Shown: positions 23,277-32,061, counted from the stretch's first letter. The stretch is DNA of 64,000 nucleotides from Nitrospirota bacterium (GCA_963836175.1 CAWIIS010000004.1:47480-111479), one strand, 5' to 3'. Numbers and translations: made by a program. The notes: generated from the letters alone by a model not told the origin.

Positions 23277-23453
23277 AATACGGCGCGTTACTCCCACCCG
23301 CAAAAGAAGAGTAGAACCCCGCGACTTTCTCGCAGAATCATTGCCTTAAATTACCCTTCTTTTATTCTTTACCTATTTGGTCAATGTTGTATATAGTCAT
23401 AGGTGGTCCGCAGTGAAAATTAACGTCTCTACTCGCGGGCACGCAAAGTTACC

Positions 23454-23482
23454 TTGACACCCCGCACGCTATAAAATATACT
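23454..23482 (+). promoter_or_regulatory. sigma70-type promoter (TTGACA-17-TATACT)
   Basis: perfect -35, 17-nt spacer, near-consensus -10, about 250 nt upstream of the Abi-like gene; transcript would include the tRNA-like element. Confidence 0.5.
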
Positions 23483-23651
23483 CGCCCCACAAGAGTTAGG
23501 GCATCATTCTTGCTAAACTCGTAAAGACCGGAAATCCGTTCTTTACGACTTGGGCCCTAACTGGACAACCACTGGTTGATTTGTAAAAAAGCTATTACAT
23601 ATTTGTCTTGACAATGATGCCAAACGATGAAAAAATGTTCTCGGACCTGTG

Positions 23652-23726
23652 GCCTAATATGGTAAGGCAGCTCTATTTTTATAGAGAATATCCCGGTTCG
23701 ATTCCGGGCAGGTAAAGAGCATTTAT
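23652..23726 (+). tRNA. degenerate tRNA-like sequence (intact T-arm GGTTCGATTCC, imperfect acceptor and 6-nt anticodon loop)
   Basis: D-stem GCCT/AGGC, D-loop with GG, T-stem CCCGG/CCGGG with TTCGATT loop; acceptor pairs only 5/7; likely an integration-site remnant or pseudo-tRNA. Confidence 0.3.
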
Positions 23727-23736
23727 AATATGGTAA

Positions 23737-24426
23737 GTGCTTTTTACCTACCTTGAATCCATTATGGATAGAAATGCACAGTTGGACGTTTTTAAAGCAC
23801 AAACGGAAAATGTCCGTGAGCTAGAAAAAGCTTGGACGCATGTACAGCGGACAATTAATAGAGAATTAATAAACGACAACACCACCTCTGCCTTATTGCA
23901 CACAAAATTGTTAGCTTTAATATTTTGTGCTTGGTCTGAAGCAAACTTCTCCAAATTAATTCACACACCTTATGGTTTTGAGCTCGAAGAAATTCATCAA
24001 ATTAAGCGGGCTGCCAAAAAAGACATCGTCCGGGGATGGCAAAAATGCCTTGAAATCGGTTTAAGCCGCGTGTCGAAAAAACCTAAATCAAATTACATTC
24101 CTAATATCAAGCAGGCGGTTGAACGTATTATTGATAGCTATGTTCATGAACCCCGACTGTTGAGAAATAAAATCGCACATGGACAATGGCGTACTGCGCT
24201 CAATAGTGATAACGATGCTGTAAATAATGATTTGAGTTCTGAAATAGCCGGCATAGATATTGTTAAACTATCTGTCTGGAAAGAAGCGTATAATGGCCTT
24301 TCCTCAATCATTGAGGCACTAATTGAATCTCCAGACAGCGCTTTTCATCGCGACTACTGGCAGGAAACAGTAAGAATAGAAGAACATCTTAGAAATACAA
24401 GTACGTGGATATTAGCAGGTTGTTGA
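23737..24426 (+). CDS. Abi_2/AbiD-like HEPN-motif protein (putative abortive-infection/defence protein)
   Basis: AT-rich; motif LRNKIAHGQWRTALN resembles the R-N-x-x-A-H-x-x-R/W-x-W core of AbiD/AbiF (Rx4H HEPN). Confidence 0.35.
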   Translation: MLFTYLESIMDRNAQLDVFKAQTENVRELEKAWTHVQRTINRELINDNTTSALLHTKLLALIFCAWSEANFSKLIHTPYGFELEEIHQIKRAAKKDIVRGWQKCLEIGLSRVSKKPKSNYIPNIKQAVERIIDSYVHEPRLLRNKIAHGQWRTALNSDNDAVNNDLSSEIAGIDIVKLSVWKEAYNGLSSIIEALIESPDSAFHRDYWQETVRIEEHLRNTSTWILAGC

Positions 24427-24429
24427 AAA

Positions 24430-25790
24430 AGTCGCTTTTAATGTTGAATTTTCTGGCATAGCTTATTTAGCTATGCTATAACCATCGCGCAATCATCACA
24501 CATTCGATCAAGGAGCGATGCATGCGCGGTGACGACGTCAAAACAGAGGCTATGTTCTACTATCTATCGCCTGAATCAATGATTCCTCAGGACCATCCGA
24601 TACGCCCCATCCGGAGGATGGTTGATCAAGCCCTTGCGGAACTTTCACCAGAGTTCGACAAGATGTATTCCCGCATTGGTCGTCCCTCGATTCCGCCAGA
24701 AAAACTCCTGAAAGGGCTTTTGATCCAGACGCTCTTCTCTATCCGGAGCGTTCGTCAGCTCATGGATCAAGTCAAATTTAATATCCTCTTCAAATGGTTC
24801 TTGGGCCTTGCCATTGATGACAAGGTATGGGACCACTCGACATTCTCTCAGAATCAGGACCGGCTTATTGACACTGACATTGCCCGGAAGTTCATGGAAC
24901 GTATCCAGGCGCAAGCCGAGAAAGCGAAACTGATTTCAAAAGAACACTTTTCCGTGGATGGTACGCTGATCGAGGCCTGGGCCTCCATCAAGAGTTTTCG
25001 TCAGAAGTCAGAAGCCACCCCGCCGCCCAAAGAAACACGGAATGATGACGTAGACTTCCGGGGGACCAAACTTAAGAACGATACTCACGAGTCCAATACC
25101 GATCCGGACTGCCGCATCTATAAGAAAAGCTCCGGCAGCGGCGCCAAGCTGTGCTATATGGGCCACCTCCTTATGGAAAACCGGAATGGCCTGGTTGTTG
25201 TTCCTACCGTGACCCATGCCACCGGAACCGCTGAACGAGAAGCGGCCGAGGAAATGGTGGCCGAGGTTGACGGAGACCAACGTATTACGCTCGCTGGAGA
25301 CAAAAACTATGACACCAGCGATTTTGTCCTCAGCTTGCGCTCAATGAACGTCACACCCCATGTCGCCGCAAACACCGAGCGCAAGGGCGGCTCCGCTATC
25401 GATGGCAGAACAACCCGTCACTCAGGATATGCCGTAAGCCAGAAATGCCGAAAGCGCATCGAAGAGGTCTTCGGCTGGATGAAGACCGTCGGCAATCTCC
25501 GAAAGATCAAGTACCGAGGTGTGCCCAAGGTCTCCTGGCATTTCATCTTCACTGCTGCCGCTTACAACTTGGTTAGAATGCGAAATCTCGGAGTAGCGGC
25601 AACATGATGCAGCAGAGGTGTGCCCTTTTCCTCGGCAGCGAGTGAAAAGAGGCAAGCAAAGCACCATAAACAATGACAAAGATCAATAACAACCGATTTG
25701 AGCCGAGAATTATGAGTCTCAGCCGCTTTCAAATTTCAATAAGGGCGCTGGTTTTTCTTATATGAAGGCCTTTTTCAACGGCCTGTTAGA
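24430..25790 (+). mobile_element. IS5/IS1182-family insertion sequence (boundaries approximate; inverted repeats not identified)
   Basis: single transposase ORF in AT-rich context; only a weak 10-nt inverted match GTTGAAAAAG at 24425 and 25780. Confidence 0.35.
24522..25607 (+). CDS. IS5/IS1182-family DDE transposase
   Basis: N-terminal InsH-like region (HPIRPIRRMVDQAL...GRPSIPPEKLLKGLLIQ...FKWFLG) and C-terminal DDE region. Confidence 0.75.
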   Translation: MRGDDVKTEAMFYYLSPESMIPQDHPIRPIRRMVDQALAELSPEFDKMYSRIGRPSIPPEKLLKGLLIQTLFSIRSVRQLMDQVKFNILFKWFLGLAIDDKVWDHSTFSQNQDRLIDTDIARKFMERIQAQAEKAKLISKEHFSVDGTLIEAWASIKSFRQKSEATPPPKETRNDDVDFRGTKLKNDTHESNTDPDCRIYKKSSGSGAKLCYMGHLLMENRNGLVVVPTVTHATGTAEREAAEEMVAEVDGDQRITLAGDKNYDTSDFVLSLRSMNVTPHVAANTERKGGSAIDGRTTRHSGYAVSQKCRKRIEEVFGWMKTVGNLRKIKYRGVPKVSWHFIFTAAAYNLVRMRNLGVAAT

Positions 25791-25900
25791 AGATAAAATC
25801 CGGAAATTGAAAACTAAAAAGGCCTATTACAACAAAAATTAAGAACGCGTTAGTTAGCACCGAACCTATAGGGACAGAAAGATAATCTGGAGGTTTTATC

Positions 25901-30960: not shown

Positions 30961-30965
30961 CGTAT

Positions 30966-31003
30966 GGGGTCAGACTTAAAGATTGAGTTGTAGACACGTG
31001 CCG
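30966..31003. repeat. 38-bp perfect direct repeat, copy 2
   Basis: identical to 29960-29997. Confidence 0.8.
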
Positions 31004-31135
31004 GCAGCCTCGCCGTGGGCATGTTTTTCGTTGTGCTGTCAATTATCGTCAAATCACTGAAGCAGATCGAAAAGAATACAGCGAAGCAAAACACACCCGC
31101 ACAATCTACGACAGTTTTTAAAAGCATAATATCTC

Positions 31136-31164
31136 TTGACGGTAATATCCTTTTAGGATAATAT
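31136..31164 (+). promoter_or_regulatory. higBA promoter TTGACG-17-TAATAT with overlapping TATCCT-ttt-AGGATA inverted repeat (candidate HigA operator)
   Basis: -10 ends 6 nt before the GTG start, implying a leaderless or near-leaderless transcript. Confidence 0.5.
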
Positions 31165-31170
31165 AGCTCT

Positions 31171-31452
31171 GTGATCAAATCGTTCAAAAGTAAGGAAGCT
31201 GAAAAGTTATTTCATGGCTGGTTCTCCTCGAAATTGCCGCAAGCAATTCAACGGAGCACTGCAATAAAACTTGAACTGATTCATGCCGCGACCATGATCG
31301 AAACACTGCGAATCCCGCCGTCAAATCATCTTGAGGAATTGAAAGGTGAAAGGAAGGGGCAGCACAGCATCCGCATCAATAAACAGTGGAGGATTTGTTT
31401 CACTTGGAAAGGCAGTGATGCCTACGACGTTGAAATTGTCGATTACCATTGA
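31171..31452 (+). CDS. higB: HigB-family (RelE/ParE superfamily) toxin
   Basis: 93 aa; MIKSFK...LKGERKG...W(R)I(C)F...VDYH signature of HigB/killer protein family. Confidence 0.8.
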   Translation: MIKSFKSKEAEKLFHGWFSSKLPQAIQRSTAIKLELIHAATMIETLRIPPSNHLEELKGERKGQHSIRINKQWRICFTWKGSDAYDVEIVDYH

Positions 31453-31463
31453 AAGGAATGAAT

Positions 31464-31775
31464 ATGAAAACAAAAAAACGCGACTTTTCTCCCATCCATC
31501 CGGGCGAGATCCTGGTATCGGAATTTTTGGAGCCGATGGGTATCAGTCAATACCGCTTGGCAAAAGACATCGGTGTAACACCTCGACGCATTAACGAGAT
31601 TGTACATGGACGACGAGCTATTTCCGCAGACACGGCGTTGCGGCTGAGCCATTTTTTCGGCATGGAAGCGCAGTTTTGGCTCAACCTGCAATCAAGATAT
31701 GATATGGAAGTAGCCAGAGAGCTACTTCACGATAAAATCATCAAACAAGTCCGTCCCTTTTCCCGCGCAGCATAA
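31464..31775 (+). CDS. higA: HigA antitoxin (XRE-family HTH)
   Basis: HPGEIL...LAKDIGVTPRRINEIVHGRRAISADTALRL...FWLNLQ; immediately downstream of higB. Confidence 0.8.
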   Translation: MKTKKRDFSPIHPGEILVSEFLEPMGISQYRLAKDIGVTPRRINEIVHGRRAISADTALRLSHFFGMEAQFWLNLQSRYDMEVARELLHDKIIKQVRPFSRAA

Positions 31776-32061
31776 TATCATCATAACGAAAGGCTCGGCT
31801 TCGTCTGGGGCGATTAACCCGCCCGGCGGGTCAGCCTTGCGTTCTCGCCGTCGCTTCGCGACGCCAGAATGGGGCACCGCGCCCTCAGCCGAGCCGTTCT
31901 CCGGTCGGTCGGATAGATCAAGGGGATATTTGATGCCAGGCCCAGGGAATTTCTTTTTACACCACTTAATAAACCTTCCCCAGTAGCACTCCGCGTCACC
32001 GCAATCCCTCTCTTGCTTTTCCTCCCCTCCTGGTCTATGTTTTAATTGAGGAAACAAGCAC

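What the first reader, a model, noticed from the sequence alone, without database searches (positions are those of the whole stretch)
23280..31800. AT-rich accessory island next to a tRNA-like remnant
Base composition drops sharply from the GC-rich flanks. The island begins right after a degenerate tRNA-like sequence with a perfect T-arm. It carries an Abi/HEPN-like gene, a transposase, a four-gene cassette of unknowns, a repeat-flanked insertion and higBA. This is a typical horizontally acquired defence or addiction island. It is the most likely place in this window for an undescribed system.
Basis: partly seen in the sequence, partly recalled or inferred. Interest (0 to 1): 0.7.

Follow-up and report, generated by a model that had tools for sequence, protein, structure and literature searches.

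The report
tRNA-shaped RNA paired with HEPN toxin
The "tRNA remnant" at the edge of this AT-rich patchwork of acquired genes is a conserved tRNA-shaped RNA with no anticodon loop that almost always sits directly in front of one family of predicted RNA-cutting proteins in many bacterial phyla, which suggests an undescribed RNA-protein toxin-antitoxin or phage-defence module.

Summary
The composition drop at 23.3-31.8 kb is real, but the region is a mosaic. It includes a host-like stretch at 28.9-29.9 kb. I found no integrase and no repeat of the tRNA-like 3' end.

The four "unknown" ORFs are not a conserved cassette.

The main result is that the tRNA-like sequence (23643-23716) is not an attachment-site remnant. 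It is a selected RNA that starts at its own sigma-70-type promoter. It keeps covarying acceptor, D and T stems, and its "anticodon arm" is a hairpin capped by 3-5 nt. It lies directly upstream of a roughly 235-aa all-alpha protein with an invariant RNxxxH (HEPN-type) motif.

The pairing holds in 76 of 80 genome loci from at least seven phyla and in 10 of 10 independent viral loci. No other gene is conserved nearby. In three contexts the pair moves as one identical integron cassette.

No Pfam, NCBIfam, PADLOC or Rfam family covers either part, and I found no paper on it. The best reading is a type III-like toxin-antitoxin or abortive-infection module with a tRNA-mimic RNA antagonist. The closest known analogue is AbiF/RCd22.

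The copy in this window has lost its last 17 codons to the IS5-family insertion. No function has been tested.

The parts
23277..23607 (.). AT-rich spacer between OsmC and the module. It contains a second promoter-like site (23454-23482) and a long hairpin (about 23494-23564).
   Evidence: GC is 0.42. Promoter scan. Fold gives -35.5 kcal/mol, z = -5.1. Function unknown.
23608..23636 (+). Sigma-70-type promoter (TTGACA, 17 nt, AAAAAT, with TG extension) that places the transcription start at the 5' end of the cloverleaf.
   Evidence: The same phasing, with the -10 box ending 8 nt before the first acceptor pair, is seen in 22 of the 30 loci whose promoter scores at least 9 of 12. Only 3% of random 55-mers reach that score.
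23643..23716 (+). tRNA-like RNA without an anticodon loop. It has a 5-bp acceptor stem, a D arm, a 6-bp hairpin with a UUUU loop in place of the anticodon arm, and a perfect T arm (CCCGG-TTCGATT-CCGGG).
   Evidence: ARAGORN. Rfam tRNA 35.9 bits. Own covariance model R1 scores 82.8 bits at 23640-23719. Covariation across 73 loci. Loop sizes.
23710..23749 (+). 17-bp hairpin whose 5' arm includes the acceptor 3' strand. Its 3' arm repeats the acceptor 5' strand, so it competes with the cloverleaf. No U-tract follows it here.
   Evidence: The MFE of the leader is -48.5 kcal/mol, z = -5.1. The same arrangement occurs in 57 of 73 loci, against 5.6% after shuffling.
23764..24415 (+). 5' 217 codons of the HEPN-motif gene. 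The true start is the ATG at 23764. The RNKIAHGQW motif is invariant in the family. As it now stands the ORF runs to 24426 and ends in three IS-derived codons.
   Evidence: Alignments A1 and A3. 319 homologues. No Pfam, NCBIfam or PADLOC hit. phrog_12663, E = 1e-17.
24416..25785 (+). IS5-family insertion sequence. Terminal inverted repeats are CAGGTTGTTGAAAAAG and CAGGCCGTTGAAAAAG. TTAG target duplications lie at 24412-24415 and 25786-25789. The transposase ORF is 24522-25607.
   Evidence: (I6).
25790..25842 (+). Displaced last 17 codons plus stop of the HEPN-motif gene (EDKIRKLKTKKAYYNKN*).
   Evidence: Removing the IS and one TTAG in silico restores a 234-aa ORF colinear with homologue P0002 to its end.
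25901..26461 (+). ORF D, a 186-aa predicted membrane protein with no family match.
   Evidence: Not found next to E elsewhere.
26592..27335 (+). ORF E, 247 aa. It is a highly conserved mobile gene with an archaemetzincin-like fold, a degenerate metal motif and a C-terminal membrane helix. It is bracketed by GTTATAC (26570) and its complement GTATAAC (27330).
27391..28098 (+). ORF F, a predicted lipoprotein (MFNSKFHALFFLISITLLTSC...) with the lowest GC in the region.
   Evidence: phrog_1353, E = 3e-8 over the C-terminal 70 residues.
28245..28847 (+). ORF G, 200 aa, with no family match.
29351..29726 (-). Frameshifted DUF309 gene in a stretch of host-like composition (28.9-29.9 kb) that splits the 'island'.
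   Evidence: PF03745, E = 5e-18, for 29541-29726. GC is 0.55-0.59.
29952..31004 (+). Segment bounded by 46-nt direct repeats (29952-29997 and 30959-31004, 96% identical). It carries a 169-aa TPR gene (30182-30691).
   Evidence: The origin of the repeat is unexplained.
31171..31775 (+). higBA type II toxin-antitoxin pair (HigB 31171-31452, HigA 31449-31775).
   Evidence: PF05015, E = 3e-19. TIGR02607, E = 2e-34.

Best explanation
The 23.3-31.8 kb stretch is a patchwork of separately acquired mobile pieces. It is not one island inserted at a tRNA gene.

Its first piece is a self-contained RNA-protein module. A sigma-70-type promoter starts transcription at the first base of a tRNA-shaped RNA. 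That RNA keeps the acceptor stem, D arm and T arm, so it keeps the tRNA elbow, but its anticodon arm is only a tetraloop-capped hairpin. Next comes a hairpin that competes with the acceptor stem. About 15 nt further on is the gene for a roughly 235-aa all-alpha protein with an invariant RNxxxH (HEPN-type) motif.

I propose, by inference only, that the protein is a toxic RNase, probably acting on tRNA or tRNA-like substrates. I propose that the tRNA-shaped RNA is its cis-encoded antagonist. It would act as an uncleavable pseudo-substrate that binds and holds the enzyme, as RNA antitoxins do in type III systems. The competing hairpin, which is a true terminator in some lineages, would set the ratio of free RNA to full-length mRNA. 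Loss of the RNA, through transcription shut-off or degradation during phage infection or after loss of the element, would free the RNase. That would give abortive infection or addiction.

In this window an IS5-family element has removed the last predicted helix of the protein (17 residues), so this copy is probably weakened or dead.

The rest of the region holds solitary mobile genes (one of them, E, is an integron cassette elsewhere), a host-like remnant, a repeat-flanked TPR gene and a standard higBA pair.
For: Shown by the tools:
1. Association. A covariance model finds the RNA next to the gene in 76 of 80 genome loci from Proteobacteria, Bacteroidota, Firmicutes, Cyanobacteria, Planctomycetota, Myxococcota, Verrucomicrobiota and other groups. 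Three of the other four loci lack upstream sequence. It is also found in 5 of 5 close relatives and in 10 of 10 independent viral loci, down to 27% protein identity. There were no hits in 394 kb of control loci.
2. Selection on structure. 95.8% of cells are paired, against 71.7% after shuffling and 30-55% when partners are slid. 223 cells carry changes on both sides, against 70. 11 of 13 pairs show compensatory changes.
3. Not a decoding tRNA. The anticodon-arm loop is 3-4 nt in 62 of 73 loci and often GNRA. It is never 7 nt.
4. Promoter phasing puts the transcription start at the cloverleaf 5' end.
5. A hairpin competing with the acceptor stem is conserved in 57 of 73 loci, against 5.6% after shuffling.
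6. No other gene is conserved within 4 kb on either side.
7. The RNA and the gene move together. An identical unit of about 930 nt, bounded by integron core sites and a canonical attC, occurs in three different contexts. Other contexts include a plasmid, sites next to integrases, and restriction-modification or Mrr neighbours.
8. The protein has R, N and H of RNxxxH invariant and an all-alpha model with pLDDT 90.7. The only recurrent Pfam signal is sub-threshold HEPN_Swt1 over the motif, in 10 of 50 members.
9. There is a precedent with the same layout (promoter, structured RNA, hairpin or terminator, HEPN toxin, co-transcription). In AbiF/RCd22 the RNA neutralises the toxin by direct binding (bioRxiv 10.1101/2025.04.15.648962, read).
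Against: - Nothing about function was tested: not toxicity, RNase activity, RNA-protein binding or phage defence.
- HEPN membership rests on the motif and an all-alpha model. No profile or fold search gave a significant HEPN match.
- In most proteobacterial loci the hairpin has no U-tract, so the RNA may exist only as a 5' leader and act purely in cis.
- The family is rare in sequenced phages and plasmids. I did not score defence-island enrichment.
- One locus (L007) has the RNA downstream on the opposite strand. That fits action in trans but breaks the leader model.
Confidence: 0.5

Rival explanations
1. The tRNA-shaped element is only a cis-acting 5' leader. Switching between the cloverleaf and the long hairpin would control transcription read-through, mRNA processing by tRNA-maturation enzymes (RNase Z or RNase E), or stability of the HEPN mRNA. 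It would sense the state of the cell's tRNA-processing machinery and would not inhibit the protein directly.
For: - Transcription starts at the cloverleaf, and there is no room for a second promoter before the ORF.
- Two mutually exclusive pairings are both conserved.
- Some Bacteroidota loci have a true terminator with a U-tract, while a second RNA type has no hairpin and only 20-30 nt to the ATG.
Against: - L007 carries the RNA as a separate gene on the opposite strand.
- A toxin gene with no antitoxin would be hard to keep or mobilise.
- This reading is compatible with the main explanation and does not exclude it.
Confidence: 0.2
2. The RNA is a bait or sensor and not an inhibitor. Phage factors that bind, cut, modify or ligate tRNAs would act on the tRNA-shaped RNA, and the altered RNA would then switch on the HEPN protein.
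For: - The tRNA elbow and acceptor are kept while the anticodon loop is discarded.
- Established knowledge: phages and defence systems fight over tRNAs (PrrC, RloC, PARIS, retron-Eco7). This is recalled, not tested here.
Against: No direct evidence. It does not explain how the toxin is kept silent. The layout matches antitoxin-type systems better.
Confidence: 0.1
3. One reading: a single horizontally acquired island integrated beside a tRNA gene, whose degenerate remnant marks the attachment site.
For: Sharp GC drop, IS, higBA and unknown genes.
Against: - No repeat of the tRNA-like 3' end anywhere in the window.
- No integrase.
- The AT-rich DNA starts 360 nt before the element.
- The element has its own promoter and is under structural selection together with the next gene in about 90 unrelated loci.
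- Composition differs gene by gene, and a host-like segment interrupts the region.
Confidence: 0.05
4. The run of same-strand ORFs (the HEPN module, D, E, F, G, TPR and higBA) is a decayed integron cassette array that has lost its integrase and most attC sites.
For: - Both the HEPN module and E are bona fide integron cassettes elsewhere.
- E is bracketed here by GTTATAC and GTATAAC, and its 3' flank begins with the same 12-mer (GTATAACAAGGC) as the attC of the HEPN cassette.
- Each ORF has its own composition.
- Toxin-antitoxin cassettes are typical of such arrays (established knowledge).
Against: - No intergenic region in the window folds as a canonical attC.
- A crude attC scan shows no enrichment.
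- No intI in 64 kb.
- A minus-strand host-like segment interrupts the run.
Confidence: 0.3

Closest known systems
AbiF (Abi_2/HEPN) with the RCd22 non-coding RNA of Clostridioides difficile (type III-like toxin-antitoxin; bioRxiv 10.1101/2025.04.15.648962, also PLoS Genet 2025)
   Same: The order of parts is the same: housekeeping-sigma promoter, structured RNA of about 100 nt, hairpin or terminator, no second promoter, then a HEPN-motif protein co-transcribed by read-through. In that system the RNA neutralises the toxin by binding it.
   Different: RCd22 carries two abiF motifs (Rfam RF03085), not a cloverleaf. The protein here is not detected by the Abi_2 model or any other Pfam model. The RNA here matches only the tRNA model, weakly. 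Nothing has been tested experimentally for this family.
Type III toxin-antitoxin systems (ToxIN, CptIN, TenpIN)
   Same: An RNA gene lies upstream of an endoribonuclease toxin gene in one transcription unit, with a hairpin between them. They are mobile and linked to abortive infection.
   Different: Those antitoxins are tandem repeats of 34-36 nt, cut by the toxin and assembled into pseudoknot complexes. Their toxins are ToxN/AbiQ-fold proteins, not HEPN. Here there is one cloverleaf-shaped unit and no tandem repeats.
Genuine tRNA genes and tRNA-targeted genomic islands
   Same: Acceptor, D and T arms are present, with GG in the D loop and a canonical GGTTCGATTCC T loop. Some copies are called tRNA-Cys, Arg, Lys and others by ARAGORN.
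   Different: There is no 7-nt anticodon loop and no encoded CCA. The acceptor stem is 5 bp. Eight of the ten family copies sampled score below the Rfam tRNA threshold. The element is not at an island border with a repeated 3' end.
Integron gene cassettes carrying toxin-antitoxin modules
   Same: In L137, L138 and L139 the RNA-plus-gene unit is bounded by GTTRRRY core sites, ends in a canonical attC and carries its own promoter, as toxin-antitoxin cassettes do.
   Different: The window copy has no recognisable attC or integrase. Most of the 80 genome loci were not examined for attC.

Membership tests
Functional (decoding) tRNA | 7-nt anticodon loop on a 5-bp stem | tested here: not met
   The loop is 3-4 nt in 62 of 73 loci and 5 nt or more in 11, and it is never a 7-nt anticodon loop. 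The window copy has UUUU on a 6-bp stem. ARAGORN reports a 2-nt 'anticodon'.
Functional (decoding) tRNA | Cloverleaf with acceptor, D and T stems and a conserved T loop | tested here: met
   Covariation supports all three stems. GGTTCGATTCC is nearly invariant. The acceptor stem is only 5 bp.
tRNA-targeted integrative island | Direct repeat of the tRNA 3' end at the far border, and an integrase | tested here: not met
   No second copy of the 22-nt 3' part with up to 3 mismatches. No tyrosine-recombinase match in the window.
tRNA-targeted integrative island | Island absent from the same site in related genomes | tested here: inconclusive
   The 48 metagenome loci with the neighbouring methyltransferase are not syntenic.
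HEPN superfamily | Rx4-6H motif, usually RNxxxH, conserved across the family | tested here: met
   R, N and H of RNKIAHGQW are invariant in 19 and in 50 sequences.
HEPN superfamily | All-alpha helical-bundle fold | tested here: inconclusive
HEPN superfamily | Significant profile match to a HEPN family | tested here: not met
   No Pfam hit for the window protein at E up to 5. HEPN_Swt1 appears only below threshold, in 10 of 50 members with best E = 0.0097.
HEPN superfamily | RNase activity | not testable with these tools
   Needs biochemistry.
Abi_2 / AbiF-RCd22 system | Abi_2 (PF07751) protein and the abiF RNA motif (RF03085) | tested here: not met
   No Pfam hit for the window protein at E up to 5. 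In the scan of 50 members, Abi_2 is not among the 25 listed of 45 families matched at E up to 10. Rfam finds only tRNA.
Type III toxin-antitoxin | RNA antitoxin gene directly upstream of a toxin gene in one operon, separated by a hairpin or terminator | tested here: met
   Promoter, RNA, hairpin and ORF are arranged this way in the window and in most loci.
Type III toxin-antitoxin | The RNA binds and neutralises the toxic protein | not testable with these tools
   Needs toxicity-rescue and binding assays.
Type III toxin-antitoxin | Tandemly repeated antitoxin units processed by the toxin (as in ToxI) | tested here: not met
   There is a single cloverleaf per locus, and the repeat search found no tandem array there.
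Integron gene cassette | Bounded by GTTRRRY core sites, with an attC (R''-L''...L'-R' with an extrahelical base) at the 3' end | tested here: met
   Met for relatives only. The HEPN module in L137-L139 has identical boundaries and a canonical 68-nt attC. ORF E in L084 sits beside an IntI-like integrase with four copies of a 30-nt attC repeat.
Integron gene cassette | The same features in this window | tested here: not met
   No canonical attC fold in any intergenic region. Only vestigial GTTATAC and GTATAAC flank E. No intI.
IS5 family insertion sequence | DDE transposase, terminal inverted repeats and a 4-bp target duplication | tested here: met
   NF033581 at 278.6 bits. Inverted repeats match at 14 of 16 positions and TTAG is duplicated.
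HigBA type II toxin-antitoxin | HigB toxin gene upstream of and overlapping a HigA HTH antitoxin gene | tested here: met
   PF05015, E = 3e-19. TIGR02607, E = 2e-34. The genes overlap by 4 nt.

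The most novel reading that the evidence does not exclude
This is a new class of RNA-protein immune or addiction module in which a tRNA mimic, with the tRNA elbow and acceptor intact and the anticodon loop deleted, acts as pseudo-substrate antitoxin for a tRNA-directed HEPN RNase. Its acceptor-versus-hairpin switch would couple release of the toxin to the state of the cell's tRNA-processing machinery or to tRNA-targeting phage factors. That would be a toxin-antitoxin logic distinct from ToxIN-type and AbiF-type systems, spread across many phyla and carried on integron cassettes.
Probability: 0.3. Interest if true: 0.9.

Novelty: new variant of a known kind. Interest (0 to 1): 0.8.

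Why it matters
If the proposed function holds, the module adds a tRNA-shaped RNA to the short list of RNA antitoxins. It would link toxin-antitoxin and abortive-infection biology to the conflict between phages and hosts over tRNAs. It would also give a compact two-part system (about 120 nt of RNA and a 235-aa protein) that can be tested directly in E. coli.

Whatever the function, there are three practical consequences.
- These elements are called as tRNA or pseudo-tRNA genes by standard tools, with arbitrary anticodons (Cys, Arg, Lys, Pyl, 'Stop'). They can therefore be mistaken for island attachment sites, as happened here.
- They define an RNA family of roughly 90 members with strong covariation that is absent from Rfam 15.
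- The protein family, with 468 representatives at 50% identity, is absent from Pfam, NCBIfam and PADLOC.

The finding also shows that RNA-protein toxin modules can travel as integron cassettes with their own promoter.

Tried and rejected
- **Synteny test of the island.** The neighbouring methyltransferase retrieved 48 metagenome loci, but none shares the OsmC and helicase neighbours. The test was inconclusive.
- **Conserved protein partner.** Clustering all ORFs within 4 kb on either side in 78 loci found no shared neighbour.
- **Four-gene cassette.** D, F and G are absent from the three other contexts of E. Rejected as a unit.
- **attC array in the window.** A crude R''/R' scan with folding showed no enrichment, and the candidate spacers do not fold as attC. 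I kept this only as a low-confidence rival.
- **Att-site repeat of the tRNA-like 3' end.** None found.
- **Real or suppressor tRNA.** Rejected on loop size.
- **Presence in sequenced phages, plasmids and E. coli.** There were 0 phage records, 2 plasmids and no E. coli match.
- **Literature.** Seven full-text searches combining tRNA-like or tRNA mimic with HEPN, antitoxin, abortive infection, type III toxin-antitoxin, anti-phage or structured-RNA surveys found no description. One apparent hit concerned tmRNA only.
- **46-nt repeat around the TPR gene.** Confirmed but unexplained.

Full report
**1. Checking the observation**

GC falls from 0.56-0.64 in the flanks to 0.37-0.47 within 23.3-31.8 kb. 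The strongest tetranucleotide deviation in the whole 64-kb window is at 26-29 kb. So the compositional anomaly is real.

It is not uniform. The table gives GC and GC3.

| Feature | GC | GC3 |
|---|---|---|
| HEPN-motif gene | 0.39 | 0.34 |
| IS element | 0.50 | - |
| ORF D | 0.50 | 0.56 |
| ORF E | 0.37 | 0.34 |
| ORF F | 0.36 | 0.34 |
| ORF G | 0.49 | 0.52 |
| 29.0-29.7 kb (host-like) | 0.55-0.59 | 0.58-0.70 |
| TPR gene | 0.42 | 0.47 |
| higB, higA | 0.44-0.47 | 0.49-0.50 |

The host-like stretch at 29.0-29.7 kb holds a frameshifted DUF309 gene on the minus strand (PF03745, E = 5e-18).

- OsmC on the left flank.
- An IS5-family transposase (NF033581, 278.6 bits).
- Four ORFs with no Pfam, NCBIfam, PADLOC or informative PHROG match.
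- A TPR gene between 46-nt direct repeats, with 2 copies against 0 expected.
- HigB and HigA.

The only tRNA-like call in the window is at 23643-23716. ARAGORN gives '???' with a 2-nt anticodon. The Rfam tRNA model gives 35.9 bits against a gathering score of 29.

**2. The transposase sits inside the HEPN-motif gene**

Homologues of the ORF after the tRNA-like element start at the ATG at 23764 and run about 15-25 residues past the point where the window ORF stops.

A 1370-bp IS lies at 24416-25785. Its inverted repeats are CAGGTTGTTGAAAAAG and CAGGCCGTTGAAAAAG, and it is flanked by a TTAG duplication. Removing the IS and one TTAG in silico restores a 234-aa ORF that is colinear with the 78%-identical homologue P0002 to its last residue.

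The insertion is therefore recent. It removes the last 17 residues, which form the terminal helix in the AF2 model.

**3. The tRNA-like element is a partner of the gene, not a remnant**

The protein has 319 homologues in the 5.8-billion-protein collection. It has 468 representatives at 50% identity among 1.84 billion. Nearly all are single-domain proteins of about 235 aa, and those that carry a source name are almost all called hypothetical protein.

A scan of one genome per species returned 146 relatives, of which 80 loci were kept. They come from Gamma-, Beta- and Alphaproteobacteria, Desulfobacterota, Myxococcota, Bacteroidota, Firmicutes, Cyanobacteria, Planctomycetota, Verrucomicrobiota, Chloroflexota and Acidobacteriota.

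Several lines tie the RNA to the gene:
- ARAGORN called a 'tRNA' immediately upstream, on the same strand, in about 27 of the loci. The anticodons were arbitrary: Cys, Arg, Pro, Lys, Tyr, Gln, Leu, Ile, Asn, Met, 'Stop', Pyl, or 2- and 4-nt anticodons.
- The T-loop motif GGTTCGATTCC lies 25-90 nt before the start codon in 72 of 78 loci.
- A covariance model (R1) built from 73 of these elements finds the element next to the gene in 76 of the 80 loci, at 33-83 bits. Three of the other four have no or too little upstream sequence. Genuine tRNAs in the same loci score 22-44 bits.
- The model finds nothing in 394 kb of unrelated control loci.
- It finds the element in all five close relatives fetched separately.
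- In an independent collection not used for training, it finds the element in 10 of 10 IMG/VR loci that have upstream sequence, down to 27% protein identity.
- No other ORF is conserved within 4 kb on either side.

**4. Anatomy of the RNA**

I aligned the elements with MAFFT, which takes no account of structure. RNAalifold then recovered the acceptor stem (5 bp), the D stem and the T stem, with compensatory changes at 11 of 13 pairs.

For that structure, 95.8% of cells are paired. The figure is 71.7% after column shuffling and 30-55% when partners are slid by one to three columns. There are 223 cells with changes on both sides, against 70 in the shuffles (0 of 500 shuffles reach the observed value).

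The segment between the D and T arms folds into a 4-9-bp hairpin. Its loop is 3-4 nt in 62 of 73 loci and is often a GNRA tetraloop (GAAA, GCAA, GCGA). It is never a 7-nt anticodon loop. No CCA end is encoded. The RNA therefore keeps the tRNA elbow and acceptor but cannot decode.

A sigma-70-type promoter scoring at least 9 of 12 is present in 30 of 76 loci, against 3% of random 55-mers. In 22 of those 30, the -10 hexamer ends exactly 8 nt before the first acceptor pair. In the window it is TTGACA, 17 nt, AAAAAT at 23608-23636. Several Bacteroidota loci show a TAnnTTTG box at the same place. I saw that by eye and did not quantify it. Transcription therefore starts at the 5' end of the cloverleaf.

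Downstream, 57 of 73 loci have a strong hairpin, against 5.6% after shuffling. Its 5' arm begins with the acceptor 3' strand and its 3' arm ends with a copy of the acceptor 5' strand. The cloverleaf and the full hairpin are therefore mutually exclusive, and both are maintained by covariation. In the window the full-length leader prefers the long hairpin (-48.5 kcal/mol, z = -5.1).

In most proteobacterial loci no U-tract follows the hairpin, and the start codon is 10-20 nt further on. In some Bacteroidota the hairpin is a true intrinsic terminator. A second RNA type has a GGGGG/CCCCC acceptor, no hairpin, and the ATG 20-30 nt downstream. It goes with the most divergent protein clade, at 32-38% identity, in Bacteroidota, Planctomycetota, Myxococcota and a cyanobacterium. 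The RNA and the protein therefore co-vary by clade.

Rfam 15 has no family for this RNA. Of the ten family copies sampled, eight fall below the tRNA gathering score, and nothing else matches.

**5. The protein**

R, N and H of RNKIAHGQW are invariant. Other invariant positions include E59, K64, H67-T68-P69 and W92 (P0002 numbering).

The AF2 model is all-alpha, with 11 helices, pLDDT 90.7 and pTM 0.87.

In a scan of 50 members against Pfam, the only recurrent signal is HEPN_Swt1. It is below threshold, it lies over the motif region, and it appears in 10 of 50 members with best E = 0.0097. phrog_12663 (unknown function) matches at E = 1e-17.

I therefore call the protein 'HEPN-motif' or 'HEPN-like'. 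Membership of the superfamily is likely but not proven.

**6. Mobility**

The identical protein P0007 occurs in at least three contexts:
- next to an integrase fragment, between housekeeping genes (L137);
- beside IS91, a restriction-modification system and HicB (L138);
- on a Rep3/relaxase plasmid (L139).

P0005 lies between an Mrr-like nuclease and an integrase (L136).

Aligning L137, L138 and L139 shows a 100% identical unit of about 930 nt. It begins at G|TTATAC, 20 nt before the -35 box. It ends at ...GCAAC|GTTA, after a 68-nt element that folds as a textbook attC, with an R''/R' stem, 3-nt spacers, an L''/L' stem with one extrahelical base, and a terminal loop.

So the RNA and the gene travel together as an integron cassette with its own promoter. 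The window copy has no recognisable attC.

The family is absent from 50,697 sequenced phage records, present on 2 of 72,556 plasmids and not found in E. coli.

**7. How it most likely works (inference)**

The layout is promoter, structured RNA, hairpin or terminator, no second promoter, then a HEPN-motif gene. This is the layout of AbiF/RCd22 in C. difficile. There the RNA lowers read-through and neutralises the Abi_2/HEPN toxin by direct binding, in cis and in trans (bioRxiv 10.1101/2025.04.15.648962). It is also the general layout of type III toxin-antitoxin systems.

My proposal has four parts:
- The protein is a toxic RNase, plausibly directed at tRNAs.
- The tRNA-shaped RNA is its pseudo-substrate antagonist.
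- The acceptor-versus-hairpin switch tunes the ratio of RNA to mRNA.
- Loss of the RNA frees the enzyme.

What is shown: the obligate pairing, the structural selection, the promoter phasing, the competing hairpin, the co-mobility and the conserved RNxxxH motif. What is inferred: toxicity, RNase activity, binding and the trigger. My confidence in the functional model is about 0.5.

L007 (Desulfonema limicola) carries the RNA downstream on the opposite strand. That favours action in trans.

The rival readings are a purely cis-acting leader, a bait or sensor RNA, and a decayed integron array for the whole region. They are set out separately.

**8. The rest of the region**

ORF E (247 aa) belongs to a family of 579 proteins, and the 120 listed are all at least 67% identical to it. 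Its neighbours differ in every context. D, F and G never accompany it. DNA homology is confined to the ORF and about 40 nt upstream.

On the Candidatus Tenderia electrophaga plasmid (L084), E is the second cassette after an IntI-like integrase, in an array with four copies of a 30-nt attC repeat. In the window it is bracketed by GTTATAC and GTATAAC.

F is a predicted lipoprotein. D and G remain unknown. The four ORFs are therefore not one system.

The 46-nt repeats around the TPR gene are real but unexplained. higBA is canonical.

**9. Island model**

No repeat of the tRNA-like 3' end exists in the window. No integrase was found. The low-GC DNA starts about 360 nt before the element.

The presence/absence test in relatives failed for lack of syntenic contigs. 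The region is best seen as a hot spot that has collected several small mobile units, possibly a decayed cassette array.

**10. Novelty and verdict**

Seven full-text literature searches found no description of a tRNA-like RNA coupled to a HEPN-type protein or acting as an antitoxin. Neither component is in Rfam 15, Pfam, NCBIfam or PADLOC 2.0.

In kind, it is a new variant of the RNA-antitoxin/HEPN-toxin theme, and its RNA partner has no precedent that I could find. The island itself is ordinary. The module is the interesting part, and the copy in this window is damaged by an IS. Interest: 0.8.

Noticed in passing
window 26592-27335; L084 5400-7300: ORF E is a very highly conserved (at least 67% identity across Gamma- and Deltaproteobacteria) 247-aa membrane-anchored protein with an archaemetzincin-like fold. 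Its metal-binding motif is degenerate (HDETRG in place of HExxH). It travels as an integron cassette and has no Pfam family.
   Followed up: partly
window 29351-29726 (-), 32062-33412 (+), 19546-21164 (+): Several GC-rich host-type genes are split across reading frames: DUF309, a DEAD-box/Lhr-like helicase and a NAD_binding_4 reductase. They are either pseudogenes or indel errors in the assembly.
   Followed up: partly
window 29952-29997 and 30959-31004; also 30748-30766 and 30942-30960: A 46-nt direct repeat (96% identical) brackets the TPR gene. A second 19-nt repeat encodes a duplicated 'LLESKI' peptide of a broken minus-strand coiled-coil ORF. This suggests the TPR segment was inserted into, or duplicated within, an older gene.
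   Followed up: partly
window 23494-23564: A 70-nt hairpin (GTTAGGGC...GCCCTAAC; -35.5 kcal/mol, z = -5.1) lies just downstream of a near-consensus promoter (TTGACA, 17 nt, TATACT, 23454-23482), between OsmC and the module. It could be a small RNA or a vestigial recombination site.
   Followed up: partly
window 26486-26509 and 28704-28727: A 24-nt inverted repeat (88% complementary) sits in the D-E spacer and inside ORF G, enclosing the two lowest-GC genes, E and F. About 0.01 such pairs are expected by chance. Its meaning is unknown.
   Followed up: no
L007 3651-3725 (-): In a Desulfonema limicola MAG the tRNA-like RNA (69 bits) lies downstream of the HEPN-motif gene on the opposite strand. 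A MazF/PemK-like gene sits immediately upstream of the HEPN-motif gene.
   Followed up: partly
L003, L012, L020, L023, L033, L037, L038 and others, about 40-120 nt upstream of the gene: ARAGORN labels family members as tRNA-Cys, Arg, Lys, Pyl or 'Stop'. Genome annotations may therefore carry these RNAs as spurious tRNA or suppressor-tRNA genes.
   Followed up: partly
window 38000-42000: A second stretch of lower GC (0.45-0.50) holds several ORFs with no Pfam match, a TPR protein and a multihaem cytochrome c (c7/c3 type). The cytochrome fits a Desulfuromonadia/Geobacter-like host.
   Followed up: partly
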